Positions 1 to 15,688 of a DNA stretch of 64,000 bases are shown one piece after another. The DNA lies in NCBI GenBank assembly GCA_049968235.1, contig JBMFRC010000001.1, positions 357,443 through 421,442 of the forward strand. Reading direction: 5' to 3'. A program made the position numbers and the translations under genes. The notes beneath the pieces were generated by a model. It ran no database searches and was not told the DNA's origin. It saw only the letters and a program-made list of their open reading frames with translations. This stretch comes from Candidatus Hydrogenedens sp. (GTDB lineage Bacteria; Hydrogenedentota; Hydrogenedentia; Hydrogenedentales; Hydrogenedentaceae). Numbering within the stretch: the stretch's first letter is position 1; the number at the start of each line of letters is the position of its first letter.

Positions 1-1193
1 ATGCTCTTATCTGGACCTCTGTAATGTTATTGTCTCTGATGATAATGCTCTGGACAACAGCGGATGACCTTGTCTATACCATTTTAGGATATAAACCTAT
101 ATATACAGTTTGGGTTATGGCGGGTGTTACAGGTTTCTATACCTTTGCAGGAGGATTATCCGCCGTGGTAATGACCGATGTAGTTCAGTTAATAGTAATG
201 TATGTTGGGGGGTTAGGTTTGCTGGCATTAAGTTTATGGGAAGTCGGTGGATGGAGTGTTATGAGAGCCAAAATAGAGGCACTCGGTCCGGAATATGCAA
301 ATCATTTTACAATTCTTCTGCCAAACAGCATAGAAAATCCATTCCCATGGACAGGAATTGTCTTCGGTCTGGGTATTGTTCTTGCCATCGCTTATATGAG
401 TGGAAATCAGGCAATTGTTCACAGAACATTGGGCGCCCGTTCTGAATGGGATGCCAAAGCAGGGATGCTCATGGGAGGTTTTTTGAAGTCTTTTATTCCA
501 TTAATGGTAGCTCTGCCCGGACTCTGCGCTATTGTTTATCTGCATGAAAGAAACATTATATTGCATGAACAGGATAAAGTTATTCCCACTATGATACGGA
601 TGATGCTACCACCAGGATTACGAGGACTTATGTTTGCAGCTCTTTTTGCTGCATTAATGTCCAGTATCTCCGGCACTCTTAGTTCTGCTTCCACCATATT
701 TGTTACAGATATTTTCAATAAGCTCTGGACATTAGGAAGAAAAAAATCATTAGACGAAAAACAGGCTTTATATGTGGGACGAGGTTTTACCTTGTTTCTT
801 ATCATAAGTAGTGCCATCTTTGCGGAACAAATATCACGAGTTGGTGGAATTTATAATTTTATCCAAACTATTTTGTCTCTATTTCAAGGTCCCTCTCTGG
901 CTATTCTATTGCTTGGAATTATGTGGAAACGAGCCACCGGTTGGGGAGGTCTGGTAGGCTTAATATCCGGCGTCTTTTTCTGTTTTATTTTATGGTGTGT
1001 TCCCAACCTATTCCCTGCAGAAGACCCATTCTTATTTGTTTCCATGTGGTCTTTTGTCTTCTCAATCATTGTTACTGTAATAGTTAGTCTTCTAACCCCG
1101 CCCGAACCCGAAGAAAAGATTCGGGGTTTGGTCTGGGGGTCTGTTGTTCAGGATATAAAAGCACAAAAAGCCTTAGCGGAAAGGATTCAATAA
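1..1193 (+). CDS. sodium:solute symporter (SSS) family transporter, 5'-partial (reading frame open to window start)
   Basis: ORF 24..1193 is open in frame back to base 3. The product is a polytopic membrane protein with an SSS-like core (YTFAGGLSAVVMTDVVQLIVMYVGG) and many TM helices. Confidence 0.7.
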   Translation, partial: ALIWTSVMLLSLMIMLWTTADDLVYTILGYKPIYTVWVMAGVTGFYTFAGGLSAVVMTDVVQLIVMYVGGLGLLALSLWEVGGWSVMRAKIEALGPEYANHFTILLPNSIENPFPWTGIVFGLGIVLAIAYMSGNQAIVHRTLGARSEWDAKAGMLMGGFLKSFIPLMVALPGLCAIVYLHERNIILHEQDKVIPTMIRMMLPPGLRGLMFAALFAALMSSISGTLSSASTIFVTDIFNKLWTLGRKKSLDEKQALYVGRGFTLFLIISSAIFAEQISRVGGIYNFIQTILSLFQGPSLAILLLGIMWKRATGWGGLVGLISGVFFCFILWCVPNLFPAEDPFLFVSMWSFVFSIIVTVIVSLLTPPEPEEKIRGLVWGSVVQDIKAQKALAERIQ

Positions 1194-1636
1194 TGAATAT
1201 CTATACAAAAACTATTTTTTCTATACTCTTTGTTCCCATAATTTGCACTATGTTTTCCATTAGCGCATTTACACAAACAAATGAAACTGCCTCTAAAGAT
1301 GTGGATATTCCCAAAGCAGAGGTTTCTTACATATTTCATCTTGCAGATAAAGTAGTGGACAGTTGGTTAGCGTTCCTAGACGGATTGGGCAGGACATTTG
1401 ACCCTATCATAAGACCTATTTTCAGACCTATTACAACATTCTTAGAACGCACTTATCAGCCCTGGGCTAAAATATGTGCTCTGGGATTATTTGTTGGCAC
1501 TATGCTCTGGGTATGGCTCGGAATGCCTAAAGAATATGTTAACCTGGGTAGAAAAAAGAAAACTGTGTGGACAGATCTAAGATTGTGGACAATCATTTCC
1601 ATGCTTCCTCATATTATTGTATATCTATACTTCTAA
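1193..1636 (+). CDS. hypothetical small membrane protein (N-terminal signal/TM plus C-terminal TM)
   Basis: 147-aa ORF. Its ATG overlaps the TAA of the symporter (TAATG), consistent with translational coupling. Hydrophobic N- and C-termini. Confidence 0.4.
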   Translation: MNIYTKTIFSILFVPIICTMFSISAFTQTNETASKDVDIPKAEVSYIFHLADKVVDSWLAFLDGLGRTFDPIIRPIFRPITTFLERTYQPWAKICALGLFVGTMLWVWLGMPKEYVNLGRKKKTVWTDLRLWTIISMLPHIIVYLYF

Positions 1637-1652
1637 CTTAGGAGATTTTCAT

Positions 1653-1946
1653 ATGGCAAACGAAGAAAAGAACATAAATACTCAGGACCGCGGCGAAATG
1701 CACCGCATTGATAATGAACGAAATCAAGGAGTGCAATTAGAACATAGAGATGCAGAATTATATATTGTGATGGGGATTTTTGTAGTGGCTTTAGGTTTGC
1801 CTGTTATTTTAGGGACTTATTTCTCCATGCAAGCAAGTAATTACCGACCCGCAGTTGTGAATTTTATTTGCGGTGTTGTAATGACGGGTATTGGAATAGC
1901 ATCAATCCTTTACGGCTGGGCTATGAAGAAAAGACTCTTGTCGTGA
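1653..1946 (+). CDS. hypothetical small membrane protein (2 predicted TM helices)
   Basis: ATG at 1653 is preceded by a GGAGA-like RBS. The longer ORF from 1617 lacks an RBS. Two hydrophobic helices. Confidence 0.4.
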   Translation: MANEEKNINTQDRGEMHRIDNERNQGVQLEHRDAELYIVMGIFVVALGLPVILGTYFSMQASNYRPAVVNFICGVVMTGIGIASILYGWAMKKRLLS

Positions 1947-2569
1947 ACAACACAGTTCCTTCAGGATATATACCGCTTCGTTATACACAAAAAGAAGTTC
2001 CTTTACGACTGCCTGTCCCGCGATTTTATCGCTATCGAACACAGATTAGTAAATTATTTCTATCATTCTCAGGCAAAGTAGTCCCTCTACCCATACAAGA
2101 ATTACCTAAGTATGAGTTAGTCGCCTGGCCTCTGTATATAGTCCGATTCTTTTTACAGTCTGGTACAGAGAAAACACAAGAAATATTTATCGCTGTAGAT
2201 GCCTGGACAAGAACAATTGCACGATTTGAGCGTATAAAAGAGATACAAGACACTCCTACCGCAGATTTTCAATTATGGATTAAACCTTCTATATCATTAG
2301 ACGAAGTAAAATCTATCGCCCGGTACGGACTCATGCATCAGTTGCTACGCCAGCGAAGATTACAACCTGCCCCTGAAACGGTTATACCCGAAATTATATT
2401 TTTAGTTTATACGCCTATATGGGCATGTTATTTTGCACGAACTCTACACTCCTTAGATGTTCGACTTCTCGATGGTTATTCCGGTGAAAAAATAGGTTCC
2501 CAAACCCGAAGTGCCTTCTTAAATGCTCTGATACATCATCACTCTGAAAAATCAGGAACTTCTTATTGA
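1868..2569 (+). CDS. hypothetical protein (alternative GTG start at 1943 overlapping upstream stop as GTGA)
   Basis: 233-aa ORF with no recognisable motif. The start is uncertain. Confidence 0.35.
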   Translation: MRCCNDGYWNSINPLRLGYEEKTLVVNNTVPSGYIPLRYTQKEVPLRLPVPRFYRYRTQISKLFLSFSGKVVPLPIQELPKYELVAWPLYIVRFFLQSGTEKTQEIFIAVDAWTRTIARFERIKEIQDTPTADFQLWIKPSISLDEVKSIARYGLMHQLLRQRRLQPAPETVIPEIIFLVYTPIWACYFARTLHSLDVRLLDGYSGEKIGSQTRSAFLNALIHHHSEKSGTSY

Positions 2570-2727
2570 AAACAACTATATACTTTGTATATACCTATTA
2601 AAAACTTTCACCTCGAACAATCGGAAATTATTTTAATATAAATTAGTGGAAACTTTTTATATTTGTGCTAAAGTTAATATAACACCTAAAAAGTTTGCAG
2701 TAAATTTCCCCAGATAATGCAAATATT

Positions 2728-3539
2728 CTACATGGCCAGCAAGATATAAAACATTTCCTCCTCCCGGAAATGATTAAAATGAGCCGAATTCCCAAAAGCA
2801 CCAAACTCATCCCACATTACAGGAAGTTCACTTGCAGATAATGATAATCTCGAAGGATTATTAATATCTGTAATTAAAAATCGCTCAACACATTTTCTTA
2901 ATCTCGGAACAGGACTTAAATCACCTAATTTCACGGCAAACCTATCTTTTATAGGAAGGGAATCGTCATACATCTTTACTACCTACTGTAACATTCCTAT
3001 CCTCTCGGGCTTAAAATACTGAATAGCCTGAATCATAACCGCGCAAGGGTCTACTCCGAGAGGAAGTTACTTGTGTTTGATGGAAGAGGCACACCTGGTT
3101 TAATTAGCATATCAGGGTGTGGAGCCCATCCAAAATAATTGTAACTGCCTTTATCAAATTGGCAGGGTAATATAGGTTTATTGAAATCATAATCTACATG
3201 AAATCTCGTACGAACAGATTCTGCATCAGAATCAGAAAGGAATACACAGATATTAAAATCCGGCATATATTCTGGATACAATAGGGTAGGTTCAAAAATT
3301 GCATCGAAAACGAAATTGCCATGACAATCTAATAATTTTATGGGAGGATAATACTCTCCCTTTGCTTCATTCGCATACATTTCAAATATTACACCCATTT
3401 GTTTTAAATTATTCTGACATGACGAATGTCTTACCGTCTCTCTTGCTCTTGCTTATGCAGGCGATAATATTGTAGCAAGATTCCCTATAATCGCAATGAC
3501 AACTAATAATTCAATCAGCGTAAATCCTTTCTTTTTCAT
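2728..3539 (-). pseudogene. prepilin-type N-terminal cleavage/methylation domain protein (DUF1559, H-X9-DG family), disrupted
   Basis: Minus-strand ATG at 3539 gives MKKKGFTLIELLVVIAIIGNLATILSPA, a type IV pilin-like methylation motif. An in-frame TAA (3453..3455) sits where the conserved Leu of LLPAL-AKAREAARR is expected. The frame then continues ARARETVRHSSCQNNLKQMG... into ORF 3051..3398. A further C-terminal piece (FGNSAHFNHF, resembling FGSxHPGG) lies in another frame in ORF 2728..2973. Confidence 0.6.
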
Positions 3540-4146
3540 TTTTAATCTCCTTTCCAAATAAGGTTAAAATTTTATTTTTATCGATATGAGTTCTTTATAT
3601 CACATGATATAACATAATAAATATTAATAACCAATAATGATTATTATAATAAATATATTATATTATAACATGTTATTCAATGTTAATTTAATATATAATT
3701 TAAGTTATTATACAATAGTAGAAATTATAATAGAATATCAATATTTGTTATACTCATTATTAATATTTACTATTATATCTCTATTTTACTAAAACGTTCT
3801 AACTATGCTATCGATTTATAGGAGTAATACAAGAATTACTCTTGAGACCTCTGAATAAAAAAATACGATAAATAGTATATGAAAAATTATATATAGGAAG
3901 GGTAAAAGGGAAAAGTAAATATGTGGTATGATGAAAGAGGCAAAGCAGGTAAGTTTTTTATATTATGCAGTGTCAAAACAAAGACTGACATGATGAGAGA
4001 AATGATTGAGAGTAATGCAAGAGATAACCCTGTGGGAGAAATTGGAATGCAGATGAGTAGAGGGGAGAGTATAAGTCAAACCGGGGAGAGCGGAGGAGTT
4101 CGTCTTTACTATTTTATGCATTTTTGAATACTGAGTGATGATTTTT

Positions 4147-4193
4147 CTGTGTTCTCTGTGGTTGATTACATTTTTTCACCACGGAGGACACAG
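4147..4193 (+). other. stable 15-bp stem-loop (ctgtgttctctgtgg / ccacggaggacacag, 17-nt loop)
   Basis: Inverted repeat read directly from the sequence. On the + strand the two mismatches are G-U wobbles. No U-tract follows on either strand. Confidence 0.3.
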
Positions 4194-4571
4194 AGGAGCA
4201 TAGATAAAGGAGCATATCATTTCTTGCTAATGACTGCATATAATTTAAAACGGATGTATGGAAAATTAAGGAAACAAAAGGAGAGATATGCATAGATAAC
4301 AAAAAGATAGAAAAACGGACAGAAAACAACAAATAAAATGGGTAAAAGTAAAAATATAGACTCTTGCATTTTAATTCCTCATCGGGGTTTTATCTCGTAA
4401 AAACATGTATAATTTATACTCTAACCTCTTACACAAATTGTTCAGAGGTCTCATTGAATAATAAGACTCTATGTAATTCAGATAGAAAAGCCCGTGTCTA
4501 TTTTAATGAATTTTCCATTCGTCCTGTTTGCCTAATTGGGTCGCTCGGTCTTACTTGCTTTTATTGAAGAC

Positions 4572-6914
4572 TTATTGGGGAATAAGTGAAGAAAAGTCAA
4601 CATTTGCTGATATATCTGGCTGGCGACGGATATTTAAAGGAAGCATTATAAAAACATAATCCCCTTCTATCCTATGTTTTATTCCTTTTTGTAAATACAT
4701 ATCTACCCCGCCATCATCTTTTCTATCCATGCCTATGCTATATATTTTAAATGCAAAGTCATCTCCTTTTATATATGTAATTGGTTCGCCATTTTTCCAT
4801 GGGTCCTCAGGAATTTTAGAAATATAATCGGGAACAAGTTCTTTTAGATTATCAGGAAGCCGATTATTTTTCAAACGAAATCGTTCAATGGCTATAGCGG
4901 TTTGAACAAGATTTATAAGAACATAGTGCCGTAATTCGGAATCAAAACAGCGGTCCAATGACGGGTATATTATGTTGAGGTTTATATAAAGCCAGTGTGG
5001 GGGAATAGATGTGAAGAGTGAATTTATTTCTCTCTTTTTCAGAAGATGAGTCTTATAGTCATCGAACGAACATTTTTCTTGTATGCAAATGTTTTCTTTT
5101 TGTGCTACATTGGTAGCCGTTTTTCTTAGTGCGGTATATAGATTCATTGCCACCATTCTTTCTATATCTGTAAGATAAAAAACATCAAAGATAGGAACCC
5201 ATGATTTAATTATATTTCTCAATTGATAATATTGAAGGTACTTATATTTTTGTATCCAGGAACTATATTCAATTAAGAATCCTTCTCTTTGAACCATAGG
5301 TAAAACAGACAGAAACATCAGTAATTCTGTATGTAAACTCAAATTAAATAAGGACCTTTCTTCAGGAGGTACCGAAAAATTCTGAACAATATTACTTAAT
5401 TCTAAAAGTACTTCTTCGGATAGTTCTTGATGATTAATAATCCATTCTAAATTATCATAGAATTTCCTAAACATGGCAATATATACAAGTTGTGAAATAT
5501 ATACAGGTTCATCTTTTAGAGATTTAGAAACAGAGGCACAGGTTCGCAATGCCCGCAACATATTTCCATAATCACCATCTATGGCACTTAAAATAGCCTC
5601 CAACCCTAATTTCCTCTCAAAATCTCGCAATTCGGAAAGATGTCCCAATTCCACAGAATAACCCTTAGTTAAATCAATTGAATAGTACCCTTTTGTTAGA
5701 CCACTTTCAGCAGTTTCATGGAGTTTTTGGGTTAATTTTTTATATACCTTCTCGTAAACTTCTTTATATAACCAGTAGAGATTTTCCGATAGGGGCTTAT
5801 CATATCTTATTATATCGCCATAAAAACGGTTCAATATTATCTTTAGATATTCTTTTTCTTCCTGTGTTTTAAATTTTTCATCAATCTCCTTTTGATACAA
5901 TTTTTCAAAATCCATTTCCTTCAAAATGACATCTCGACAAAGAGGAAATAAATCGTAATATTTCCGGGCAATGTTCTCCTTTTGCGGAACGGAACTATAT
6001 TTTTCATTCATTTCTTTTAAGGTTGCAGGGAGAGAATTTCCTCTAAAATAAGCAATACATTTTTCAATAGTTCCTGTTTGTAAATGGGAAATAAGCGTTA
6101 AGATTGCAAAACAAAGGGGCAGTAAATATCCAACACATAAGAATGAAACCCGTTCCTCTATATACGGAGAATTCCCAGAATTTTCCAATAAATCTTTCTC
6201 TGGTGTTTTCCAATAATAACCATGTGCAAATAACAGAAGATTGAGCCATGTTATAGCAAAGATTGCAGATAAGAACAGATATGTACCTCCAAGTATGGAT
6301 GTATTAAGAATACCCAAATATTGCCATGGCACTATGCAGACAAAAATACTAAGGAAAATAATTAGCAGGAAAATCCTTTCTTTTTTCCCTAACAAACGGG
6401 CTCGGATTGTAATGAATAAATAAACAAAAAACATGATAAGATAGTAAAAATAAACTGCATGAAAAACGATATAGATAAGGGAAAGAGAAAATTTCCTACA
6501 TGAAGGGAAAATAATAAATAACAAATTCTTAACAAAAGAAATAAGCCACGAAACCCCTTGCCCTATTCCAAAAAGATGATATAGGGTCATAAACCATTCT
6601 TTATTTGAGTATATATAAAAGGAGGACAATGAATAAAAAGATATAAGCAGACACAGGACAAGAAACGAAAAGATAAGAATACTTGATGGGTTAAACATGA
6701 TTAACCAGACAATTATCCCATAAGTAATGACAATCCCGGTAATAAATATCATAAGGGGCATTAAGAAAGAATTTATATCAGGGAAAGGAATCTGCAAACT
6801 TGCCAGAGCGGGGTCTGGTACAATATGCATCTTAAACTTCCAATAAAAATAGATAAACTCTATATCCAGATAACAGGCAATGTTATGAAAAGATTTATGT
6901 TCCCTGCTAACCAA
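4572..6914 (-). CDS. large polytopic membrane protein with C-terminal soluble helical domain, function unknown
   Basis: 780-aa ORF. The N-terminal ~300 aa are very hydrophobic (about 8-10 TM). No conserved catalytic motif recognised. Last gene of the GntR-ABC operon. Confidence 0.55.
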   Translation of the reverse strand: MVSREHKSFHNIACYLDIEFIYFYWKFKMHIVPDPALASLQIPFPDINSFLMPLMIFITGIVITYGIIVWLIMFNPSSILIFSFLVLCLLISFYSLSSFYIYSNKEWFMTLYHLFGIGQGVSWLISFVKNLLFIIFPSCRKFSLSLIYIVFHAVYFYYLIMFFVYLFITIRARLLGKKERIFLLIIFLSIFVCIVPWQYLGILNTSILGGTYLFLSAIFAITWLNLLLFAHGYYWKTPEKDLLENSGNSPYIEERVSFLCVGYLLPLCFAILTLISHLQTGTIEKCIAYFRGNSLPATLKEMNEKYSSVPQKENIARKYYDLFPLCRDVILKEMDFEKLYQKEIDEKFKTQEEKEYLKIILNRFYGDIIRYDKPLSENLYWLYKEVYEKVYKKLTQKLHETAESGLTKGYYSIDLTKGYSVELGHLSELRDFERKLGLEAILSAIDGDYGNMLRALRTCASVSKSLKDEPVYISQLVYIAMFRKFYDNLEWIINHQELSEEVLLELSNIVQNFSVPPEERSLFNLSLHTELLMFLSVLPMVQREGFLIEYSSWIQKYKYLQYYQLRNIIKSWVPIFDVFYLTDIERMVAMNLYTALRKTATNVAQKENICIQEKCSFDDYKTHLLKKREINSLFTSIPPHWLYINLNIIYPSLDRCFDSELRHYVLINLVQTAIAIERFRLKNNRLPDNLKELVPDYISKIPEDPWKNGEPITYIKGDDFAFKIYSIGMDRKDDGGVDMYLQKGIKHRIEGDYVFIMLPLNIRRQPDISANVDFSSLIPQ

Positions 6915-7657
6915 TAGGTATAAATTCGTTCTTTTCGATTCATAGGGATATGGGACAACAAATAAACACCTGATTTATAATCTCTTCTCATCCGTCGGCT
7001 TACTTTCAAATGCCAGACAAGCCCTGATAACACTAAAGCAATCAGTGGGAAAAATACGAACAGTAAGTCCAGTAAGTAAGAATAGTCGAAGGAGACTATC
7101 CACCGCATTGCCAGCAATATAAACATAACAGAAACATAAAGAGTAAAAAGTAAAAACCAGAAAATACCCGTCCATACGGGAATAATCAGTCCATTATTTC
7201 TGAGTTCAAACCAGACCTGAGCAATTTGACTATTCGGAAAACTTTTAATAACCATATTCGGTTCTAATTTGCTTAGGACACTACGAAGACGCAAAGGAAG
7301 TAATAACTTTATATCTTTTTTTATGCCAGTCCTTACCTGTGAAGTAATTTTTACACTCAAAAACCAGATGAGGTAAGTATAAAGTATTACTAACACCAAA
7401 AATATTAAGTAAGTATATGTAGAAAAGGATATTTTATTTTCATACTCTGCACCTGTAAAAGGTAAAGAACCAAATAAAAAGGGAATTACCCTATCCATAA
7501 TAGTTGCATAGTCCAAAACTGCTAATATCACACATGAAAAAATAGAAAGAAATATAATTATTCCTACCAAAAATGGTGAAAAGACAAAAAACCAGCATAA
7601 AAATTGAATAGTGAGATACACAATCCCATGTATAACAGCAGGGAAAATTAAAGGCAC
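6860..7657 (-). CDS. hypothetical integral membrane protein (putative ABC-2-type permease component)
   Basis: 265-aa ORF beginning with GTG, multi-TM. Overlaps the upstream ORF by 10 nt and the downstream ORF by 55 nt. Confidence 0.45.
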   Translation of the reverse strand: MPLIFPAVIHGIVYLTIQFLCWFFVFSPFLVGIIIFLSIFSCVILAVLDYATIMDRVIPFLFGSLPFTGAEYENKISFSTYTYLIFLVLVILYTYLIWFLSVKITSQVRTGIKKDIKLLLPLRLRSVLSKLEPNMVIKSFPNSQIAQVWFELRNNGLIIPVWTGIFWFLLFTLYVSVMFILLAMRWIVSFDYSYLLDLLFVFFPLIALVLSGLVWHLKVSRRMRRDYKSGVYLLSHIPMNRKERIYTYWLAGNINLFITLPVIWI

Positions 7658-8100
7658 ATAAAAAGGAAGTTCAAGAGGGAAAAATTTTGAAAGGCATCCA
7701 TGTATCTATGGGTAGATAATTCATAAGGTACATATTCTGATAAAATAAAAGCCACAACAAACCGTAAAAGAAAAGTAGAGAGAATAACTAAAAAGAGCCG
7801 TGTAAATAAAGATACAGTTACAATTAAAGATAAAGTTATGGGAAGATGAAATATTCTATGTGGAAAACCAATATGCATTTCTCCGGAATTACCTATCTGA
7901 AGGAGTAAAAGAATGGATATAGCATAAACCGTAAGATACAAACTAATGTCTACATCTTTCCAGTCAACAAGAAATATGGGGACAAAAATACGAAAGGAAA
8001 TAGCAACAAATATGCACATTCCTAAAACAACACCAAAAATACTACCCCCTACATATAATTCCTCCCACAATAAGGCTTTCCGAGACGAGTTAAGTTTCAT
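7648..8100 (-). CDS. hypothetical integral membrane protein (about 4 TM)
   Basis: 150-aa hydrophobic ORF immediately downstream of the ABC ATPase. Confidence 0.45.
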   Translation of the reverse strand: MKLNSSRKALLWEELYVGGSIFGVVLGMCIFVAISFRIFVPIFLVDWKDVDISLYLTVYAISILLLLQIGNSGEMHIGFPHRIFHLPITLSLIVTVSLFTRLFLVILSTFLLRFVVAFILSEYVPYELSTHRYMDAFQNFSLLNFLFMCL

Positions 8101-8224
8101 AAAAATTACTCCTTATCTTGTTTTTTCACATAAGCAATAAAAATTTCTTCTAACGATGGAATAGCGATATTAATTATCTCTCCACCTTGTTGTTGTATTT
8201 GTTCTTTTATGTTTGTGTTATTCC

Positions 8225-9036
8225 CTACACACAAAACCTGATACCCATGGCCAGGGAATTTATTCGTTTTATACCGGGGATATTCTTCAAATTTAATTTT
8301 TTATTGTTCATCCTCACTTCTAACAAATAGTGTTGTTTTTTTATCTCTTCCAGATTTCCATTCATAACAACTCTACCATGATGAAGCATGCATACATCAT
8401 CCGATACTCGTTCTACTTCATCCAATAAATGCGAGGAAAATAACACAGTTCGTCCTTCTTCGGCTACGGAACGAACTACTGCTGATAATATATCCATCCT
8501 CGCTACCGGGTCTAAACCTGACGATGGCTCGTCCATACCAACAACTCCGGACGATGTGATAATGCTACCAGTAATCCTGTTCGTGCTAATTCGCCCAGTG
8601 ATAATGCCCGTATCTTACGTTTCGGGTCTAATTCAAACTGTTCAAATAATTGATATGAATATGTCATATCCCAATTTGGATAAAAAGCGGACATATAACG
8701 GATTAATTGTTCAATACGCATCCATCGGGGAAGGTCCCGCGTTTCTGATAAGTAACCAATACGGCTGAGTACCTCTTTTGGATACTTCACGGGATTTAGA
8801 CCAAAGACAGAAACAGAACCTATCTCTACGGTATAAGCACCTAAAATATGATGAATAAGAGTCGTTTTCCCGGCTCCATTTTCCCCTACCAAACCAAATA
8901 CCCGACCCTGCAATACTTCTATCGTTACATCATTTAGAGCACACTTTCTCCCGAAATTCTTGCATAAGTTTTCGGTCTTAATGATAATTGAGTCTTTTTT
9001 TCCTTCAGATTGTTTATTCATGGTCTTTCTCCTCAT
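8225..9036 (-). pseudogene. ABC transporter ATP-binding protein, interrupted by a 1-nt frameshift near 8533-8540
   Basis: ORF 8512..9036 carries Walker A (GENGAGKTT) and a signature-like motif (LSLGELAR), and ends ...PELLVWTSHRQV*. ORF 8225..8536 starts MDEPSSGLDP, so the Walker B stretch LLVxDEPSSGLD is split across two frames. Confidence 0.65.
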
Positions 9037-9418
9037 CCATGTGCAGTTTTATTTGTTCTGCGCGGGACTGTATTAGTTCTAATAACTGGCTTAATGAAAA
9101 GTTAAGGTGCTTTGCTATAACCAATAGAGAATCTATATGTTCATATATGACGCGGTATCGTTCTTCATCGGAAAATAATGTTCGTATAGTAGCCACATAA
9201 GTACCGGCTCCAGGACGGGTATAAATCATCCCTTGATTTTCCAGTTCCCGATATGCTTTGGATACTGTATTGGGATTGATTAACAGTTGTTGAGCCAATG
9301 TGCGAACAGGAGGTAATTCATCTCCATTTTTCAAAGAACCTGTAGCAATTAGGTATTTGAACTGCCGAACAATCTGTAGATATATTGGCGTTCCATCTTG
9401 AGTATTAATTCGAATCAT
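9014..9418 (-). CDS. GntR family transcriptional regulator (short YtrA-like subfamily)
   Basis: 134-aa protein with an N-terminal winged HTH (LPPVRTLAQQLLINPNTVSKAYRELENQGMIYTRPGAGTYV). First gene of the operon, divergent from the ATP-grasp gene. Confidence 0.75.
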   Translation of the reverse strand: MIRINTQDGTPIYLQIVRQFKYLIATGSLKNGDELPPVRTLAQQLLINPNTVSKAYRELENQGMIYTRPGAGTYVATIRTLFSDEERYRVIYEHIDSLLVIAKHLNFSLSQLLELIQSRAEQIKLHMDEEKDHE

Positions 9419-9903
9419 AATTTGAATCCTAATGTATTACTGTTCTACTAATATAATACAATTTTTCTCCCGTTTGTCAATACCTTTTTAATATTTTTTC
9501 ATTATTTCATATCTTATTTTTTATCAATTATTTATATATGCTATGTCTCTTAATTCTTACGCAGGAGATTATTGTAAAGAAAAAATTTTTACAGAGTTTT
9601 ATCAATTTTAGGGGATATAAATTATTTGAAAACAGTGATGTCATCTACAATTATTGTTGTCTATATTGCTCGTAAGTTTTGAGAACGGATTTCCTTGCTT
9701 AGATAGTATAAAAGAAGAGAATAATCCTCCCATTTTTTATTTACTTTAATTACAAATCTGATTTTACTTCTCGATTACATGTATAATTTATCCTAAAACC
9801 TCTTCTTCTTTTTATTCAGAGGGCTCAATTAGTGTATCTCTTTATAAATCGTTTATCAATAATAAAAACATAACATACTATACAGAAGGGAAACAGATAA
9901 GGT

Positions 9904-10812
9904 ATGTTACAGATAGAAAAAATAGACATCCAAAAAATAAATGCAATAGCAGATATGTTGGAAACAACGACAAAGATTATAAACAGCGGATTGGATGAAT
10001 CAGCAATAAGTTCTATGTATAATGAATCAACCCCATTATGGGTCCGAACAGTTAACAATCAGTTCTGCGGGATAATTAATGATAGCAATGATATAAAACT
10101 TATTATTTCAACTGCGAAAAGAAAAGCAGAAGAAGGGGCGCCTATACTTGTTCAGCAGGGGATAGAAGGAAAAACCTGTTATCTAATCGGTTATCGTATG
10201 TCATACCATTTTTTTCCTGTAGAAATTTTTGGTGTAGAGTTTATTCCCGGAAATTATCGTATTCCTCGATTGTTATGGTTGCCTGTAGAATTTCCCGGAA
10301 AAGAATTAAAATCCATAACAGAAAAAGCCAAAGAAGTTGCCCGGAATCTTCCCCTTGGATATTATGGTGTGTTATTTGAATTCGTTGTAAATGCACAGGG
10401 TGTATTTTTATCTTTTATTGACCCATTTTTCCAGCCGGATGAAGGAATGTGCCAGATATGTAAGGAAGGAACGGGCATGGATTTAATGCGGATACATCAA
10501 ACTGTTGAAAAACAGGGGATTCCTGATGTGGTTCCTACACGCGAATTAGGATGTGCTATAGCGTGGATTATCCCGCATAGTGGAATTGTGCAAAGTATAA
10601 AGAACATTGAAAAGGTGCAAAGCACGGAGGGAATTAAGCAGGTGTATATACGAGTACATGAGGGAGATTCGCTCACTCATATAACAGATATAGATTCCCG
10701 TAATAAAACAGGATATGTAATTGCTATTGGTCCGGATGCCTTTACCGCACGGAATAGGGCGTTATCTGCAGTTTCGCGAATACAAATCAATACGCGTAAT
10801 CTTTTACCTTGA
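9904..10812 (+). CDS. ATP-grasp fold protein (central/C-terminal ATP-grasp domains only)
   Basis: Motifs GYYGVLFEFVVNAQGVFLSFIDP and ILVQQGIEGKTCY resemble the ATP-grasp B/C domains. There is a stop 3 codons upstream of the ATG, so no N-domain is encoded. Confidence 0.45.
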   Translation: MLQIEKIDIQKINAIADMLETTTKIINSGLDESAISSMYNESTPLWVRTVNNQFCGIINDSNDIKLIISTAKRKAEEGAPILVQQGIEGKTCYLIGYRMSYHFFPVEIFGVEFIPGNYRIPRLLWLPVEFPGKELKSITEKAKEVARNLPLGYYGVLFEFVVNAQGVFLSFIDPFFQPDEGMCQICKEGTGMDLMRIHQTVEKQGIPDVVPTRELGCAIAWIIPHSGIVQSIKNIEKVQSTEGIKQVYIRVHEGDSLTHITDIDSRNKTGYVIAIGPDAFTARNRALSAVSRIQINTRNLLP

Positions 10813-10870
10813 GAGATATTTTAAGTTGGTCCTGTCGGACAAATCAGGCGCGTTTGACGCATCGGATACT

Positions 10871-11896
10871 TTATATTATACTTCCTGTCTTCTTGATAAT
10901 ATTCTCTGCCATACAAAGGAGTTCGACCCATTGAATATTATAATAGCGGGGATTATGGAAATCTGCATGGATACCATTTTGGATTTTAGTGACCATAGTC
11001 TGTATGGCTTCTTCTACGCTGACTTGAGGGCGAAATCCTAAAATCTGCTCGGTCTTCTTCGTGGAAACGCGGTAACTGCGTCCTCGTGTAGAACCATATT
11101 CTACTTCAATTCCGATATCCATTCCATTTTCACGAAATACTTTCCGTACCCAATGGGCTAATTCAAGTATCCGATAATTTTTATAAGATAGATTAAATAT
11201 CTGATTTCCTACAATTTTTAGGTCCGCTTGCAGGCAAGCCACATAAGCACGGGCTATATCGATTACATCAATCAAAGGTCGCCACATCTCTCCTCCACAA
11301 TGAACAGTTAAGAAACCTTTATCAAATGCAGATTTTACAAAGGTATTAACGACAAGGTCATACCGCATACGGGGACTCCATCCATATACAGTTCCCTGTC
11401 GTAACAAGGTTGGATAGAAATCGGGTCCGGATAGTTTTAACAGTTCTTTTTCTGCCTGATATTTGCTTACCGCATACGCAGCACGCGGTTCTACTGGGCT
11501 TTCCTCATCCTGCAAAACATCTTCCGCTAATAGTCCACGGTCATAAATAGAGCAACTGGATGCAAAGATAAACCGCTTTATCCCTCTACGTTTGCAATTT
11601 TCTCCTAAAATAGCCGTGGCTTCCGTGTTTAATTTTTTGTTGGCTTCCGGATTAAATTCTGCCATCGGGTCGTTACTCAATCCTGCCAGATGAATAACTC
11701 CGTCGACATCGTCCAACCATGCAGAATCAAATTGACATAAATCACCCTGAACACATTCAATTCGATTTTTTACTTCTTCCAGCCCTTCATCTCCGAATAG
11801 GAATTTATCAACAACACGGACTGCAAACCCATGATTTAACAATTCGCGAACAGTAACCGCACCAATATAGCCAGAACCACCTGTTACCAGTATCAT
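10871..11896 (-). CDS. NAD-dependent epimerase/dehydratase (extended SDR) family protein
   Basis: N-terminal Rossmann motif ILVTGGSGYIGAVTVRELL; 341 aa. Confidence 0.8.
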   Translation of the reverse strand: MILVTGGSGYIGAVTVRELLNHGFAVRVVDKFLFGDEGLEEVKNRIECVQGDLCQFDSAWLDDVDGVIHLAGLSNDPMAEFNPEANKKLNTEATAILGENCKRRGIKRFIFASSCSIYDRGLLAEDVLQDEESPVEPRAAYAVSKYQAEKELLKLSGPDFYPTLLRQGTVYGWSPRMRYDLVVNTFVKSAFDKGFLTVHCGGEMWRPLIDVIDIARAYVACLQADLKIVGNQIFNLSYKNYRILELAHWVRKVFRENGMDIGIEVEYGSTRGRSYRVSTKKTEQILGFRPQVSVEEAIQTMVTKIQNGIHADFHNPRYYNIQWVELLCMAENIIKKTGSII

Positions 11897-11934
11897 CTTT
11901 TAACTCCTTCTTCTAATATTTATTTTTTCAATCA

Positions 11935-13842
11935 TTATGGCACAAACAGAGTTCGTATTTCTTTTTTTGTTAATCCTGCATAATCTGTAACCACAAATGT
12001 AATTGTATGCGTTCCGGAGGGTAAATCTTCATCTTGTTCCCAACGTAGTGTTCCACGAGGTCCATCATATTCACTCAGTAGCCATTTCTGGTCGCAGAAA
12101 ATTTCTGCCCGTGCTATACCACTTCCTATATCGGAAATAGAAGCAGATATAGGAGGTCGTTTTGTAAGTTGTTTTATGTCTTTATTAATATTAATGGAAA
12201 TATTTGTGATTTGTGGAGGTTCATCATCTCTTATTAATGCGAAAGTGCCCCAATCAGATACAGTGGCAATAACAGAGTCTCCCCTCTTTTGAGAATCTAC
12301 TCTTGTCCATGAAGAACTTGTTTTACGGTATAAATGGATTCGCTCTTGCGGTTGGACATTCTCTCGAATCTGTATTTTCATCTGTACCGCTTCTGCCATA
12401 GGCACATTATACGGTTCTATTTTCCATATATTTGAGGTAATTACCATGCCCTGAGGGACTTTCTGTGCAGAGACAGGGGAGATGGAAAGCCAGAGGATTC
12501 CGTATGGTGTATTGGACGGTATATCTATCTGAAAATCATTCAATACAATGGGATTTATTTTATCTTGTGCCTTAACTGCATATATAGTCTTTTCCCATGG
12601 AGGTATAGATGGATGGGACACTCGAAAAGTATATTTGCCTGATGCAGGAGGTTCCCATGGAAGTTCGTAAATATTATTTGCCCGCTGGATAGGTTTTAGT
12701 AAGATAGACTCCTGTTCTGAGATGCATGTAACCTCAGGTATTTCCTTCGCAGATGTTTGTGCTAATAGAATTTCTAATACAAGGATAGACGGTAAATAGT
12801 GAATAGAAATATCTGTTTTTTCTATCTTCTTGTGTAAATCATTTGCAGGAACATCTGTGATGTATAGAGGAATCTGTGTTTTTTTCCTATCAAAGTCCTC
12901 TACTTCTATCTGGATATGCTCCTCATCTTTTATAGAAATCCAATCTTTTCGAGCCTGCTTGTAATTCTGCGATTGATTTCCCTGCCATTGCCACAATAAC
13001 CAATAAATTGGATTTGAGATGTAAGGATAAAAAGCGACCACAGCATCCCGATAGGTATTGTAATCAATGCGGTCTTGCTGAATAGTCGATAAGATGTTTT
13101 CGCTATTCTTTAATGAAATTCGGTAAGGTCCCAATTTACAATTGCCGGATTCGGGGTCGATGGTTGAAATACCAAATCCTATTGCACCCTGTGCATTAAT
13201 AACGATAGGAAATGTTGTCTTTTCGTTAATAGGTATTTCTAGAGGAAGACAGCGACCATTGATGGTTGCGTGAATACTTCCGGGGATAACAAGTAGAGAT
13301 GTTATTTGAGGTTTATTACGGTCAATCCAGTGAAAACCATATTCCCATGGATTTAGACATGTAATTCCATCTTTTGTGCGAAGTTCAAAGTGTAAGTGTG
13401 GTGCTTTTGTTCCAGACTGACCTGTATATGCGATTATAGTCCCTTTTTTTACAATAAGTTCGTTGTCTTTGAGCATTAGGTCTACGGTGAAGGATTCTTT
13501 CTGATGTTGGACCTTTTGCAGATAAGACTGATATGGTTCTGCAAAAGAAAGTAGGTGTGCATAAATCCCCATAATTCCCGAATGAAATTGAATATATAAC
13601 ACGCGACCATAACCCCAGGGACCGCAACGCATCCTTGTTACATAGCCATCATCTATGGCATAGACCGGTGTACCAACAACAGCATGATAGTCCACGCCCA
13701 TATGAAAACGACCATCTCGATGCTCGCCAAAGGAAGAAGTAGCCATCAAGTCTCCTTTCAAAGGGAGAACAAAAGATTCTTTGGCAGAAAGGGAATTGAT
13801 TATTATAAAAATAAATGCAATAAATGGAGTTATGAACTTCAT
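11935..13842 (-). CDS. M23 family metallopeptidase with signal peptide and C-terminal beta-rich extension
   Basis: HxxxD and HxH motifs (FHMGVDYHAVVGTPVYAIDDGYV ... APHLHFEL). The start ATG overlaps the upstream stop (TAATG). Confidence 0.75.
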   Translation of the reverse strand: MKFITPFIAFIFIIINSLSAKESFVLPLKGDLMATSSFGEHRDGRFHMGVDYHAVVGTPVYAIDDGYVTRMRCGPWGYGRVLYIQFHSGIMGIYAHLLSFAEPYQSYLQKVQHQKESFTVDLMLKDNELIVKKGTIIAYTGQSGTKAPHLHFELRTKDGITCLNPWEYGFHWIDRNKPQITSLLVIPGSIHATINGRCLPLEIPINEKTTFPIVINAQGAIGFGISTIDPESGNCKLGPYRISLKNSENILSTIQQDRIDYNTYRDAVVAFYPYISNPIYWLLWQWQGNQSQNYKQARKDWISIKDEEHIQIEVEDFDRKKTQIPLYITDVPANDLHKKIEKTDISIHYLPSILVLEILLAQTSAKEIPEVTCISEQESILLKPIQRANNIYELPWEPPASGKYTFRVSHPSIPPWEKTIYAVKAQDKINPIVLNDFQIDIPSNTPYGILWLSISPVSAQKVPQGMVITSNIWKIEPYNVPMAEAVQMKIQIRENVQPQERIHLYRKTSSSWTRVDSQKRGDSVIATVSDWGTFALIRDDEPPQITNISININKDIKQLTKRPPISASISDIGSGIARAEIFCDQKWLLSEYDGPRGTLRWEQDEDLPSGTHTITFVVTDYAGLTKKEIRTLFVP

Positions 13843-14993
13843 TACTTCTTATTTTTTTTTGGTGCTGTTGGCTTTGTTGTGGTTTGAGCAGGCACGGATT
13901 TCTTTACTGCTGGGGTTTTATCCTGACGGGATAATTTTTCTAAAATGGGGTCAAAGGCGAGGAATATTTTCACTTTTTCCGAATCATTTAGATAAGGTTT
14001 ACAATATTCAAATATCTTTTCATCCGTTTTTTGTTCAATTAAAATATTTTTAATTTTTTCTTTAACCTGTTCAAAGTTAACCTTCTCTTCTGCTTCGCAT
14101 TCTAACAATTTAAACAAATGCCATCCTAATGAACTTTTTATGACAGGGCTCAGGTCTCCCGGTTTCATGGCAGGTAGAACCTGTGTAAAAAACGGAGGCA
14201 ATGCTTCTGTGGGTATCCATCCCATATCGCCTCCTTTCTGACGGTCCGGTGCTTCGGAAACAGAACGGGCAACCGCGTCAAAACTTTCTCCTGCCTTTAT
14301 TCGTGCTAATGCTTTCTCTACTTCTTTTTGTGTTTCCTGCCATGCTTTTTCATCTGCCGTTTTTGCATTGGGCTTTGGTTGTCGAAATATTTGTTTTAAA
14401 TGCACGCGTGAGGGTTTCATGAAAAGGTCCGGGTTACTTTCATAAAACTTTTTCGCTTCATCATCTGTTACGGTTATCTTATTCTCATTTACAAGGGCTT
14501 GTCTCATCTTTTTTAATATCAGATTTTTACGGGTTCTTTCGCGAAAAGATTCTATTGTCTCTCCTTTGGCTTTTAAGATGTCCTCCATACTGGGAGGGTT
14601 CTTTCCTGCCTTTTTTGTATCCTCCTGAATTTCCTTAATTTGTTCATCCACTGCTTTTTTTACCTCATCCTCAGTTACAGAATATTTTCGTTTTAGAGAT
14701 TCCTGATACAAAATTTCGCGTTGGGCTAAATTGGTAATGCAACGGATGGCAATATGGATACGGTCCTCATCTTTTACATCTTTTTGTCCCGTTCCCGCAA
14801 CATATTCCAATAGTTCCAGATGATACCTCATTAAAAATTCTTCTTTCGATATGGGCGTACCGAGAACCAAAGCCACAGGTCCATCCGGGACAGATTTCTC
14901 TACGATATCCATCCTAGACAGGTCAGGAGCCTGAGCAGGTAAATATGAAATCCAGAGGATAGAGGTAAGCACAAAAAGTAATTTGCGAAACAT
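13842..14993 (-). CDS. SurA/PrsA-like periplasmic chaperone with parvulin-type PPIase domain
   Basis: Signal peptide. Parvulin motif ...DAVARSVSEAPDRQKGGDMGWIP...GWHLFKL. Lys-rich C-terminal tail. Confidence 0.6.
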   Translation of the reverse strand: MFRKLLFVLTSILWISYLPAQAPDLSRMDIVEKSVPDGPVALVLGTPISKEEFLMRYHLELLEYVAGTGQKDVKDEDRIHIAIRCITNLAQREILYQESLKRKYSVTEDEVKKAVDEQIKEIQEDTKKAGKNPPSMEDILKAKGETIESFRERTRKNLILKKMRQALVNENKITVTDDEAKKFYESNPDLFMKPSRVHLKQIFRQPKPNAKTADEKAWQETQKEVEKALARIKAGESFDAVARSVSEAPDRQKGGDMGWIPTEALPPFFTQVLPAMKPGDLSPVIKSSLGWHLFKLLECEAEEKVNFEQVKEKIKNILIEQKTDEKIFEYCKPYLNDSEKVKIFLAFDPILEKLSRQDKTPAVKKSVPAQTTTKPTAPKKNKK

Positions 14994-15020
14994 ATAATTA
15001 TCCTTATTTTAAAATTATGT

Positions 15021-15356: not shown

Positions 15357-15688
15357 CTTCCGATTTGTACCTTTTTATTCATTCTATATAAATATACAAA
15401 ATTCAGACCCCCATTTACATTTTTAAAATTACCATTAATCAATCACTTAGAGGTAGAAAGTATTAACAAATTGATAGCTAAAACAAATAATTACCAGTAA
15501 AGGCAATTCATAAATTGTCTCAAAAGGGTATAGATGAATACATATATATCAAATGATAACCTTACATATTCGTTCTATGTCTTTTTATCCAATCCACATA
15601 TCCCATTTATATAATCTCTCATTTCTACTTACATAGATAGTATTAATTATCTGATTTAAGGTTAAAAAATATTAATTTTGTAAAGTTT

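What the first reader, a model, noticed from the sequence alone, without database searches (positions are those of the whole stretch)
4572..9418. GntR(YtrA-like)-ABC operon ending in a 780-aa orphan membrane protein, with a frameshifted ATPase
Five co-directional, overlapping minus-strand genes sit behind a 480-bp AT-rich divergent promoter region. They are a short YtrA-type GntR repressor, an ABC ATPase, two small polytopic membrane proteins (150 and 265 aa, overlapping by 10 nt and possibly one split permease), and a 780-aa protein. The 780-aa protein has about 8-10 N-terminal TM helices and a ~450-aa helical C-terminal domain with no motif I can recognise.

The architecture resembles YtrA-regulated ABC-2 envelope-stress transporters, but the large last protein is not a standard permease. 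The ATPase is interrupted by a frameshift, and the two small membrane ORFs overlap out of frame. The locus is either decaying or carries assembly errors.
Basis: partly seen in the sequence, partly recalled or inferred. Interest (0 to 1): 0.5.

Follow-up and report, generated by a model that had tools for sequence, protein, structure and literature searches.

The report
Decayed YtrA-type ABC operon, giant permease
The five reading frames are really three genes: a small repressor, an ABC ATPase and one 1,176-residue membrane protein from a large unstudied family. In this Candidatus Hydrogenedens genome four single-base deletions have broken the ATPase and the membrane protein, so the locus is a recent pseudogene operon, not a set of orphan genes.

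Summary
The minus-strand ORFs at 4572-9418 exist as described, but the gene count is wrong. Relatives carry a conserved three-gene operon:
- a YtrA-type GntR repressor (134 aa);
- an ABC-2/DrrA-type ATPase (305 aa);
- one 1,050-1,240 aa membrane protein.

In the window the 150, 265 and 780 aa ORFs are collinear fragments of that one protein. The ATPase is broken twice, not once. All four breaks are 1-nt deletions. Adding one base at each restores a 305 aa ATPase and a 1,176 aa protein with no internal stops.

The same breaks occur in other MAG assemblies of this population that differ by SNPs. Five neighbouring genes checked against a relative are intact. A pseudopilin gene just downstream carries a nonsense mutation. 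Real, recent gene decay is therefore more likely than assembly error. The repressor and its promoter/operator are intact.

Verdict: an ordinary pseudogene locus that points to an uncharacterised ABC-partner family.

The parts
9453..9480 (-). Sigma-70-like promoter: TTGACA (9480-9475), 16-nt spacer, TATTAT (9458-9453)
   Evidence: It is the best promoter-like site in 2400-10100, matching 11 of 12 positions. The same TTGACA...TAT(T/A)AT arrangement is conserved upstream of the gntR gene in six related loci. Function is inferred, not shown.
9433..9460 (.). Putative YtrA-type operator: palindrome TGTATTA-N14-TAATACA overlapping the -10 box and the region just downstream
   Evidence: It occurs once in 64 kb and in none of 100 shuffles. 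Relatives conserve TGTATTA-N6-TAATACA-G-TAATACA at the same place. In the window the middle half-site is degenerate (TAGAACA). Binding was not tested.
9014..9418 (-). Intact YtrA-subfamily GntR repressor gene (134 aa)
   Evidence: PF00392 GntR matches at E=1.5e-14. NCBIfam PmtR scores 64.9 bits over residues 4-117. It is 83-87% identical to the regulators of L001 and L002 in one frame. Its best PDB matches are 121-134 aa YtrA-type proteins: 4ham, 3neu, 3by6, 6sbs and 2du9.
8106..9021 (-). ABC-2/DrrA-type ATPase pseudogene (305 aa when repaired), read in three frames. The real start is the ATG at 9021.
   Evidence: The 305-aa ATPases of L001 and L002 align as residues 1-162 (9021-8536), 163-262 (8536-8237) and about 242-305 (8300-8109), each in a different frame. 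The repaired protein matches PmtA at 170.8 bits, then GldA, DrrA and NodI.
8528..8544 (-). ATPase frameshift 1: TTGTTGGT^ATGGACGAG, one base missing between 8537 and 8536, inside Walker B (LLV-MDEP)
   Evidence: Adding one base gives RPELLVMDEPSSGLDP. Homologues have RPELLLLDEPSSGLDP.
8244..8260 (-). ATPase frameshift 2: AATTCCCTG^GCCATGGG, one base missing at about 8252/8251
   Evidence: Homologues read RINAMGHGYRVL.
4572..8100 (-). Giant membrane-protein pseudogene (1176 aa when repaired).
   Evidence: P0001-P0006 (1114-1181 aa) align collinearly in three frames: 8100-~7685, ~7687-6863 and 6863-4575. The repaired translation has no internal stop and is 67% identical to P0001.
7670..7689 (-). 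Membrane-gene frameshift 1: CAAAATTTTT^CCCTC, a run of 5 T (7684-7680) where 6 are needed
   Evidence: P0001 reads TFRKFFPLEIRFYIPLIFP.
6852..6868 (-). Membrane-gene frameshift 2: TGGATA^TAGAG, one base missing between 6863 and 6862, which creates an in-frame TAG
   Evidence: P0001 reads SIWIVEFIYFYWKFK. This break is present in three assemblies.
6081..8100 (-). Polytopic membrane region, about 15 TM helices. The two halves each open with an amphipathic W-x-E-L helix.
   Evidence: A hydropathy scan was run on homologues. hhalign of residues 1-285 against 286-680 on an 87-sequence alignment gives E=2.3e-5 and probability 51%. No Pfam ABC-2 membrane model matches.
4998..6080 (-). All-alpha solenoid domain, inferred to be periplasmic, with conserved RYPID and EPxxxSQLVR motifs
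4575..4997 (-). C-terminal GspG-like pseudopilin head: a long helix plus a small beta-sheet, with motif LPxxLxxLVPxYLxxIPxDPW...YSIGxDxxDDGG

Best explanation
**Gene content.** The locus is a three-gene operon under a YtrA-type autorepressor: ytrA-like gntR, an ABC-2/DrrA-type ATPase, and one giant membrane protein.

**How the intact form in relatives probably works.**
- The repressor dimer sits on a long palindrome over the -10 box and keeps the operon off until an unknown envelope-related signal releases it. This is inferred by analogy with YtrA and PmtR.
- An ATPase dimer then powers the single large polypeptide.
- The two pseudo-symmetric membrane halves of that polypeptide stand in for the usual pair of ABC-2 permeases.
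- After its last TM helix it carries a helical solenoid capped by a GspG-like pseudopilin head, probably in the periplasm.
- I take this to be an envelope-directed exporter or mechanotransducer in which ATP hydrolysis moves or loads the periplasmic module. This step is inferred.

**State in this genome.**
- Four independent 1-nt deletions have inactivated both structural genes, two in the ATPase and two in the membrane gene.
- The ATPase is cut inside Walker B.
- The membrane protein is cut after about 140 and about 413 residues.
- The repressor gene and promoter/operator remain intact.
- The decay is recent. There are no further stops or large indels, and constraint looks only mildly relaxed.
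- The deletions appear fixed in the sampled population.
For: **One gene, not three**
- Six homologues of 1114-1181 aa align collinearly across the three ORFs.
- The homologues start with the same MKLNS..KALLWEELYVGG as the 150-aa ORF.

**Breaks and repair**
- The ATPase of relatives is 305 aa and aligns in three window frames.
- All four shifts go the same way. Adding one base at each restores full-length proteins with no internal stop.

**Operon conservation**
- GntR-ATPase-giant protein is found in all the contexts examined: L001, L002, L005, L006, L008, L009, L010, L014, L015/16 and L022.
- These include distant ~1050-aa members.
- L006, L012/13 and L014 have duplicated giant genes behind an ATPase.

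**Breaks are real**
- L003 (GCA_049969095.1) matches window 6330-14082 with 2 SNPs and 0 gaps, so it carries all four breaks.
- L019 (GCA_049971155.1) matches 7621-5690 at 100% and includes break j2.
- The fragment ORFs are deposited from two assemblies.
- Five adjacent genes at 9864-15433 are single-frame against relative L020.
- The neighbouring DUF1559 pseudopilin gene has an in-frame TAA at 3455-3453.

**Relaxed constraint**
- The window copy changes 12 of 231 positions (5.2%) that are invariant in the other six sequences.
- Its nearest relatives change 1.4% and 3.9%.
- The window changes include P6S and W7R.

**Regulator and operator:**

**ATPase class:**

**Domain architecture:**

**YtrA-family behaviour** (first gene of an ABC operon, autorepression, long palindromes): PMC6746942. 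PmtR-Pmt: PMC5080381.
Against: - No reads were available.
A systematic platform or polishing error shared by them cannot be excluded. One break lies in a T5 run.
- Apart from the four frameshifts the genes look clean. That is what sequencing errors would also give.
- The excess of changes at invariant sites is modest, and the window lineage is also the more divergent one.
- For the mechanism, no Pfam ABC-2 membrane model matches the TM region.
- The internal-duplication signal is weak (51% probability).
- The full-length AlphaFold model was unusable (pLDDT 42.6).
- The periplasmic location of the C-terminal module rests only on the positive-inside rule.
- No substrate or inducer is known for any member.
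Confidence: 0.75

Rival explanations
1. The operon is intact in the organism. The four missing bases are systematic sequencing or assembly-polishing errors reproduced in all three MAGs.
For: - All four lesions are 1-nt deletions, the commonest error type of several platforms.
- One lies in a T5 run.
- Once corrected, the genes have no other defect.
- The MAGs share an accession batch.
Against: - Three of the four sites are not homopolymers longer than 3.
- The assemblies differ by SNPs, so they are separate consensus sequences.
- Five neighbouring genes (5.5 kb) verified against a relative are not disrupted.
- No disruption is visible in the long ORFs that tile 12-64 kb.
- An adjacent gene carries a nonsense substitution, which is not an indel error.
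- Invariant residues such as P6 and W7 are changed.
Confidence: 0.17
2. The frameshifts are bypassed. Programmed -1 ribosomal frameshifting or transcriptional slippage still yields full-length proteins, or the fragments work as a split system.
For: - Every break needs a -1 shift.
- The break at 7689-7680 sits on a canonical slippery heptamer, A_AAT_TTT, in the incoming frame (my reading of the sequence).
- The second ATPase fragment starts with ATG at the Walker B Met.
Against: - The other three sites have no slippery sequence.
- Every homologue encodes the proteins in one frame.
- Four consecutive recoding events would multiply to a negligible yield.
- An NBD split inside Walker B has no precedent that I know of.
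- The slippery look of j1 follows simply from losing one T in AAA-TTT-TTC, which is AT-rich Lys/Asn-Phe-Phe coding.
Confidence: 0.03
3. One reading: five separate genes, comprising two small membrane proteins that may be one split permease and an independent 780-aa orphan membrane protein.
For: - The ORF list shows these five to six frames.
- NCBI annotated the pieces as separate hypothetical proteins.
Against: - Full-length homologues span all three membrane ORFs without a gap.
- The 265 and 780 aa ORFs begin at non-ATG codons inside conserved sequence.
- No relative has the split arrangement.
Confidence: 0.02

Closest known systems
Bacillus subtilis ytrGABCDEF (YtrA-repressed ABC system; PMC8060467, PMC12772383)
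   Same: - A short YtrA-type GntR is the first gene and probably represses its own operon.
- It is followed by ABC ATPase and membrane components.
- One membrane component has a large extracytoplasmic domain.
- The system is envelope-associated and may act without classical substrate transport.
   Different: - Ytr has two ATPases, two ABC-2-like permeases and an FtsX/MacB-type YtrF.
- Here one ATPase is paired with a single ~1100-1200 aa polypeptide.
- The extracytoplasmic module is a helical solenoid plus a pseudopilin-like head, not a MacB-type domain.
- The organism is a diderm candidate-phylum bacterium.
Staphylococcus aureus PmtR-PmtABCD (phenol-soluble modulin exporter; PMC5080381)
   Same: - These are the best NCBIfam matches for both the regulator and the ATPase.
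- PmtR scores 64.9 bits over almost its full length.
- PmtA scores 170.8 bits over its full length, including the C-terminal domain.
- The regulatory logic, a repressor followed by an exporter, is the same.
   Different: - The scores are far below the equivalog cutoffs of 200 and 350 bits.
- Pmt permeases are small 6-TM ABC-2 proteins without a periplasmic domain.
- No PSM-like peptide genes were seen here.
Type II secretion major pseudopilin GspG (EpsG 4lw9, PulG 5wda)
   Same: - The motif P-x-DPW...Y..YS.G.D..DDGG is retained, including the region that binds calcium in GspG (from my own knowledge of GspG).
   Different: - There is no prepilin leader or N-methylation motif and no hydrophobic alpha1-N helix.
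- The domain is fused to the end of a polytopic ABC partner, not assembled into a fibre by GspE/GspF.
- It scores below the family cutoffs (TIGR01710 19.6 against 88.85 bits).
Fused or mechanotransmitting ABC systems with large periplasmic domains (MacB, FtsEX, LolCDE, LptB2FG, BceAB)
   Same: A cytoplasmic NBD dimer is coupled to membrane proteins whose main functional part is a large extracytoplasmic domain.
   Different: - There is no sequence or fold match to the FtsX/MacB or LptF/G periplasmic domains.
- The ATPase class is ABC-2/DrrA-like, not MacB-like.
- Both TMD halves lie in one chain with extra helices.

Membership tests
YtrA subfamily of GntR regulators | N-terminal GntR winged-helix DNA-binding domain | tested here: met
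   PF00392 matches at E=1.5e-14 over residues 13-75.
YtrA subfamily of GntR regulators | Very short C-terminal effector/dimerisation region of about 50 aa with two helices; total length about 120-135 aa (PMC6746942) | tested here: met
   The protein is 134 aa. Its best PDB matches are all 121-134 aa YtrA-type proteins. 3neu aligns over residues 10-118 and 2du9 over 10-131. PmtR aligns over 4-117. The helices themselves were not modelled.
YtrA subfamily of GntR regulators | First gene of an operon that also encodes an ABC system | tested here: met
   The gene order is conserved in the window and in all the related loci examined.
YtrA subfamily of GntR regulators | Binds a long palindromic operator at its own promoter and represses it | not testable with these tools
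   A unique, conserved 28-bp palindrome overlaps the -10 box. Binding and repression need EMSA or reporter assays.
PmtR / PmtA equivalogs (NCBIfam NF047563, NF047565) | Score at or above the curated equivalog cutoff | tested here: not met
   PmtR scores 64.9 bits against a cutoff of 200. PmtA scores 170.8 bits against a cutoff of 350 on the repaired ATPase.
ABC-2 (type V, DrrAB/Wzm-like) exporter | NBD of the DrrA/NodI/GldA/PmtA class with all ATP-binding motifs | tested here: met
   The repaired ATPase matches PmtA, GldA, DrrA and NodI best. Walker A (GENGAGKT), the signature (LSLGE), Walker B (LLVMDEP) and the H-loop (SSH) are visible. In the actual sequence, frameshift 1 splits Walker B.
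ABC-2 (type V, DrrAB/Wzm-like) exporter | Membrane domain recognisable as an ABC-2 permease: 6 TM helices per half and a Pfam ABC2_membrane-type match | tested here: inconclusive
   No Pfam or NCBIfam membrane model matches. About 6 TM helices lie in the first half. The two halves align weakly (hhalign E=2.3e-5, probability 51%) and share an N-terminal W-x-E-L helix. No confident structure is available.
T2SS major pseudopilin GspG (TIGR01710 / PF08334) | Prepilin leader with the G-F-T-L-I-E N-methylation motif and a hydrophobic alpha1-N helix | tested here: not met
   The giant protein has no N_methyl match. The domain follows a soluble solenoid.
T2SS major pseudopilin GspG (TIGR01710 / PF08334) | Globular head fold: the alpha1-C helix packed on a small beta-sheet | tested here: met
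   [not shown]
T2SS major pseudopilin GspG (TIGR01710 / PF08334) | Score above the family cutoff | tested here: not met
   TIGR01710 scores 19.6 bits against 88.85. PF08334 scores 16.6 bits against 21.
Pseudogene (recently inactivated operon) | Reading frame disrupted relative to intact orthologues | tested here: met
   There are four frame changes relative to 6-8 intact orthologues.
Pseudogene (recently inactivated operon) | Lesions reproducible in independent assemblies or reads | tested here: inconclusive
   The lesions are present in two further MAG assemblies that differ by SNPs.

The most novel reading that the evidence does not exclude
The intact form of this operon may define an undescribed class of ABC machine.
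- It consists of a YtrA-type repressor, one ABC-2-type ATPase and a single giant polypeptide.
- That polypeptide supplies both membrane halves and ends in a periplasmic solenoid with a pseudopilin-like head.
- It is widespread in Hydrogenedentota and in other uncultured lineages with higher G+C sequences.
- ATP hydrolysis would be transmitted to the pilin-like head, which would engage pilus or pseudopilus-type fibres or another envelope structure. One candidate partner is the hugely expanded DUF1559 pseudopilins of these phyla.
- The same periplasmic module also exists as thousands of free-standing ~450-aa membrane-anchored proteins. It would then be a new, common envelope domain.
Probability: 0.25. 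Interest if true: 0.65.

Novelty: new variant of a known kind. Interest (0 to 1): 0.4.

Why it matters
**For this window**
- The result corrects the annotation. Five or six 'hypothetical proteins' deposited in GenBank are fragments of two pseudogenes.
- It gives a clean example of recent operon decay in an uncultured Candidatus Hydrogenedens population. The repressor survives while its structural genes are lost.

**More broadly**
- The locus points to a large protein family with no Pfam or NCBIfam model, no name and no solved structure.
- About 6,300 cluster representatives match at E<=1e-10.
- The full-length members checked are always paired with a YtrA-type regulator and an ABC-2-type ATPase.
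- The family combines two fused membrane halves with a periplasmic solenoid and a GspG-like head. That combination is not described for any ABC system I know of.
- If it is a mechanotransmitting envelope machine, it would add a new output domain to the YtrA/ABC envelope-stress theme.
- It would also give a handle on the unexplained expansion of pseudopilin-like proteins in PVC-like and candidate phyla.

Tried and rejected
**Searches that found nothing useful**
- Pfam, NCBIfam and PADLOC searches of the giant protein and six homologues gave only sub-threshold T2SSG hits.
- A sequence-profile search of the full-length alignment against PDB found nothing.
- AlphaFold2 of full-length P0001 with a 6-sequence alignment gave pLDDT 42.6, too poor to use for the TM region.
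- Foldseek of the C-terminal model against PDB found no hit below E=0.5.
- The afdb50 fold library was unavailable.
- Rfam and tRNA scans of the whole window found nothing.
- A second word-indexed protein search with the C-terminal alignment returned only 8 proteins and no informative names. It did reveal contig L019.
- Cluster name look-ups for 20 distant members gave only 'hypothetical protein' and no taxa beyond Candidatus Hydrogenedens.
- Literature searches for this architecture found nothing.

**Contigs that could not help**
- The flanks of relatives L001 and L002 are not syntenic with the window, so they could not test other window genes for frameshifts.
- Contig L004 looked as if it might carry a different ATPase allele. 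Its end is an assembly chimera joined at the Walker A codons.

**Ideas rejected**
- Programmed frameshifting: only one of the four sites is slippery.
- Alternative genetic code: reading TAG as sense at 6862 gives sequence unlike the homologues.
- Phase variation: there are no long homopolymers.
- Anti-phage defence system: PADLOC hits were generic ABC and AAA similarity only.

Full report
**1. What is in the sequence**

- 9014-9418 (134 aa)
- 8512-9036 (174 aa)
- 8225-8536 (103 aa)
- 7648-8100 (150 aa)
- 6860-7657 (265 aa)
- 4572-6914 (780 aa)

Upstream lies a 486-bp divergent region of about 26% GC. It separates them from a plus-strand gene for an L-amino-acid-ligase-like protein (9904-10812). 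Pfam places a GntR domain in the first ORF and ABC_tran in the second. It finds nothing above threshold in the three membrane ORFs, only a sub-threshold T2SSG hit near the C-terminus of the 780-aa ORF. NCBIfam agrees.

**2. Three genes, not five**

A search with the 780-aa ORF returned six proteins of 1114-1181 aa from Candidatus Hydrogenedentes/Hydrogenedens MAGs and metagenomes.
- Their N-termini (MKLNSPWKALLWEELYVGG...) match the start of the 150-aa ORF.
- tblastn shows each homologue aligning collinearly to 8100-~7685, ~7687-6863 and 6863-4575, in three different frames.

In the relatives' contigs the operon is GntR (126-134 aa; 142-143 aa in the distant members below), ABC ATPase (303-308 aa) and giant protein. 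Their 305-aa ATPase also aligns to the window in three frames: 9021-8536, 8536-8237 and ~8300-8109. So the ATPase has two frameshifts. It ends at 8106, five bases before the ATG of the next gene.

**3. The four lesions**

Reading the junctions shows that each is a single missing base:

| Junction | Gene | Sequence | Position of missing base | Note |
|---|---|---|---|---|
| j3 | ATPase | TTGTTGGT^ATGGACGAG | 8537/8536 | inside Walker B |
| j4 | ATPase | AATTCCCTG^GCCATGGG | about 8252/8251 | |
| j1 | membrane protein | CAAAATTTTT^CCCTC | T5 run, 7684-7680 | 6 T needed |
| j2 | membrane protein | TGGATA^TAGAG | 6863/6862 | creates a TAG |

Adding one base at each site yields a 305-aa ATPase and a 1176-aa membrane protein with no internal stop. 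The repaired membrane protein is 67% identical to P0001.

**4. Real or artefact?**

The exact GntR protein occurs on contigs of two other MAGs.
- L003 (GCA_049969095.1, 7753 bp) equals window 6330-14082 with two substitutions and no gaps, so it carries all four deletions.
- L019 (GCA_049971155.1) equals 7621-5690 at 100% and includes j2.
- The fragment ORFs are deposited as separate hypothetical proteins from two assemblies. The window's source is a 421-kb contig of a Candidatus Hydrogenedens sp. MAG.
- A close relative (L020/L021, 82% nt identity) is syntenic with window 9864-15433, and all five genes there are single-frame and full-length in the window.
- From 12 to 64 kb the window is tiled by long ORFs.
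- Just downstream, at 3539->3051, a DUF1559-type pseudopilin gene with a clear prepilin N-methylation motif has an in-frame TAA at codon 29, where Leu is expected. This is a substitution, not an indel.
- The repaired membrane protein differs at 12 of 231 positions that are invariant in the other six sequences (5.2%). P0001 and P0002 differ at 1.4% and 3.9% of such positions. The window changes include P6S, W7R and three further Pro-to-Ser changes.

Together these favour real, recent decay localised to this region.

**5. Regulator and control region**

The 134-aa protein is intact and 83-87% identical to its orthologues.
- It matches the PmtR model nearly end to end.
- Its best solved relatives are all 121-134 aa YtrA-type regulators.
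- The best promoter-like site in the region is TTGACA-16-TATTAT at 9480-9453.
- A palindrome TGTATTA-N14-TAATACA at 9433-9460 overlaps the -10 box. It is unique in the window and absent from 100 shuffles.
- Six orthologous upstream regions conserve TTGACA...TGTATTA-N6-TAATACA-G-TAATACA immediately before the RBS.

This fits the long palindromes and autorepression described for YtrA-family regulators (PMC6746942). Binding is inferred, not shown.

**6. The giant protein**

A full HMM search of 1.84 billion cluster representatives found 23,570 hits at E<=1e-3, 6,300 at E<=1e-10 and 289 at E<=1e-30.
- The hits include many full-length ~1000-1100 aa proteins.
- They also include many ~450-aa proteins made of one TM anchor plus the C-terminal soluble module.
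- None of those tested has a Pfam domain.
- Those with names are 'hypothetical'.
- Two distant full-length members, P0041 and P0026, again sit in GntR-ATPase-giant operons.
- Some genomes have ATPase-giant-ATPase-giant, or one ATPase followed by two to four tandem giant paralogues.

Architecture:
- Hydropathy indicates about 15 TM segments in the first ~675 residues.
- On an 87-sequence alignment the first 285 residues align weakly to residues 286-680 (hhalign E=2.3e-5, probability 51%).
- Both halves open with a W-x-E-L amphipathic helix. This suggests two fused permease-like halves.
- A full-length AlphaFold model was unusable.
- The window's own C-terminal 527 residues, modelled with a 41-sequence alignment, gave pLDDT 84.8 and pTM 0.86.
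- That model is an all-alpha solenoid followed by a long helix and a small beta-sheet.
- Foldseek against PDB found nothing significant.
- A profile of the last ~130 residues also finds GspG sequences first.
- Positive-inside loops before the last TM helix place this module in the periplasm. This is an inference.

**7. ATPase class**

The repaired ATPase matches PmtA best (170.8 bits, full length), then GldA, DrrA and NodI. It therefore belongs to the ABC-2/DrrA class with a C-terminal extension, but scores below every equivalog cutoff.

**8. Interpretation**

The intact module most likely works like YtrA/Ytr or PmtR/Pmt (PMC8060467, PMC12772383, PMC5080381). It would be an autorepressed, envelope-directed ABC-2-type system.

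What differs is the membrane partner. It is a single chain that supplies both halves and ends in a periplasmic solenoid with a pseudopilin-like head. I favour an exporter or mechanotransducer whose periplasmic module binds or hands off an envelope component. That part is inference.

In this genome the system is dead. No polypeptide contains a complete nucleotide-binding site, and the membrane protein terminates after about 150 residues. Only the repressor remains.

**9. Rivals**

- Shared systematic sequencing error remains possible (about 0.17).
- Programmed frameshifting is unlikely. Only j1 sits on a slippery heptamer (A_AAT_TTT), which is a by-product of losing one T from AAA-TTT-TTC.
- The five-gene reading is refuted.

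**10. Verdict**

As a feature of this window it is an ordinary, recent pseudogene operon that sits at a synteny breakpoint next to another decayed gene. Its value is that it exposes a widespread, unannotated ABC-partner family with an unusual periplasmic pilin-like module. I rate it a new variant of a known kind, with moderate interest.

Noticed in passing
window 3051-3539 (minus strand), stop at 3453-3455: A DUF1559-type pseudopilin gene is interrupted by an in-frame TAA at codon 29, where Leu (TTA) is expected. It has the prepilin N-methylation motif KGFTLIELLVVIAIIG (TIGR02532 E=4.7e-8, PF07963, PF07596). A further remnant ORF lies at 2728-2973. This is a second decayed gene directly downstream of the operon.
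   Followed up: partly
window 3500-4500: An extremely AT-rich, ORF-free stretch (21.6% GC at 3501-4000) lies between the end of the giant gene and the pseudopilin pseudogene. I did not determine its origin. It could be a degraded gene, a promoter region or an insertion scar.
   Followed up: no
window 9864 and 15433; loci L020/L021: Synteny with a close relative (82% nt identity) covers only 9864-15433. In the relative an Opp-type peptide ABC importer operon sits beside the L-amino-acid-ligase-like gene, where the window has the GntR operon. The decayed locus therefore lies at a rearrangement breakpoint.
   Followed up: partly
L012/L013 (DAOOVZ010000046.1), L014, L006: The giant gene has expanded in tandem. 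In one Ca. Hydrogenedens MAG a single ATPase is followed by four paralogues (1199, 1209, 1239 and 1118 aa). L014 has GntR-ATPase-1199-1237, and L006 has ATPase-1133-ATPase-1161. This suggests interchangeable membrane partners for one ATPase.
   Followed up: partly
P0101, P0106, P0127, P0140 and many others; L017: The periplasmic solenoid plus pilin-like module also exists as very numerous stand-alone ~450-aa proteins with one N-terminal TM anchor. In L017 two such genes sit near a DUF1559 pseudopilin and a GntR/CmpB pair. No Pfam model covers the module.
   Followed up: partly
L004 positions 2590-2700 (GCA_049971155.1 contig JBMFLO010000427.1): The contig end is an assembly chimera. After the Walker A codons (GENGAGKTT) the sequence switches to a different, LivG/F-like ABC ATPase.
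   Followed up: yes
window 1193-2569 (plus strand): Three overlapping ORFs of 147, 109 and 233 aa lie in different frames and have no family matches. They could be three small genes or another disrupted gene. This was not resolved.
   Followed up: no
window 7680-7689: The frameshift in the T5 run happens to sit on a canonical -1 slippery heptamer (A_AAT_TTT) in the incoming frame. I judge this to be a by-product of AT-rich Asn-Phe-Phe coding, not programmed recoding.
   Followed up: partly
L010 and L014 record titles: Two contigs that carry clear Hydrogenedentota-like versions of the operon are labelled 'uncultured Nitrospirales bacterium'. This is possibly a binning or taxonomy error in those MAGs.
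   Followed up: no
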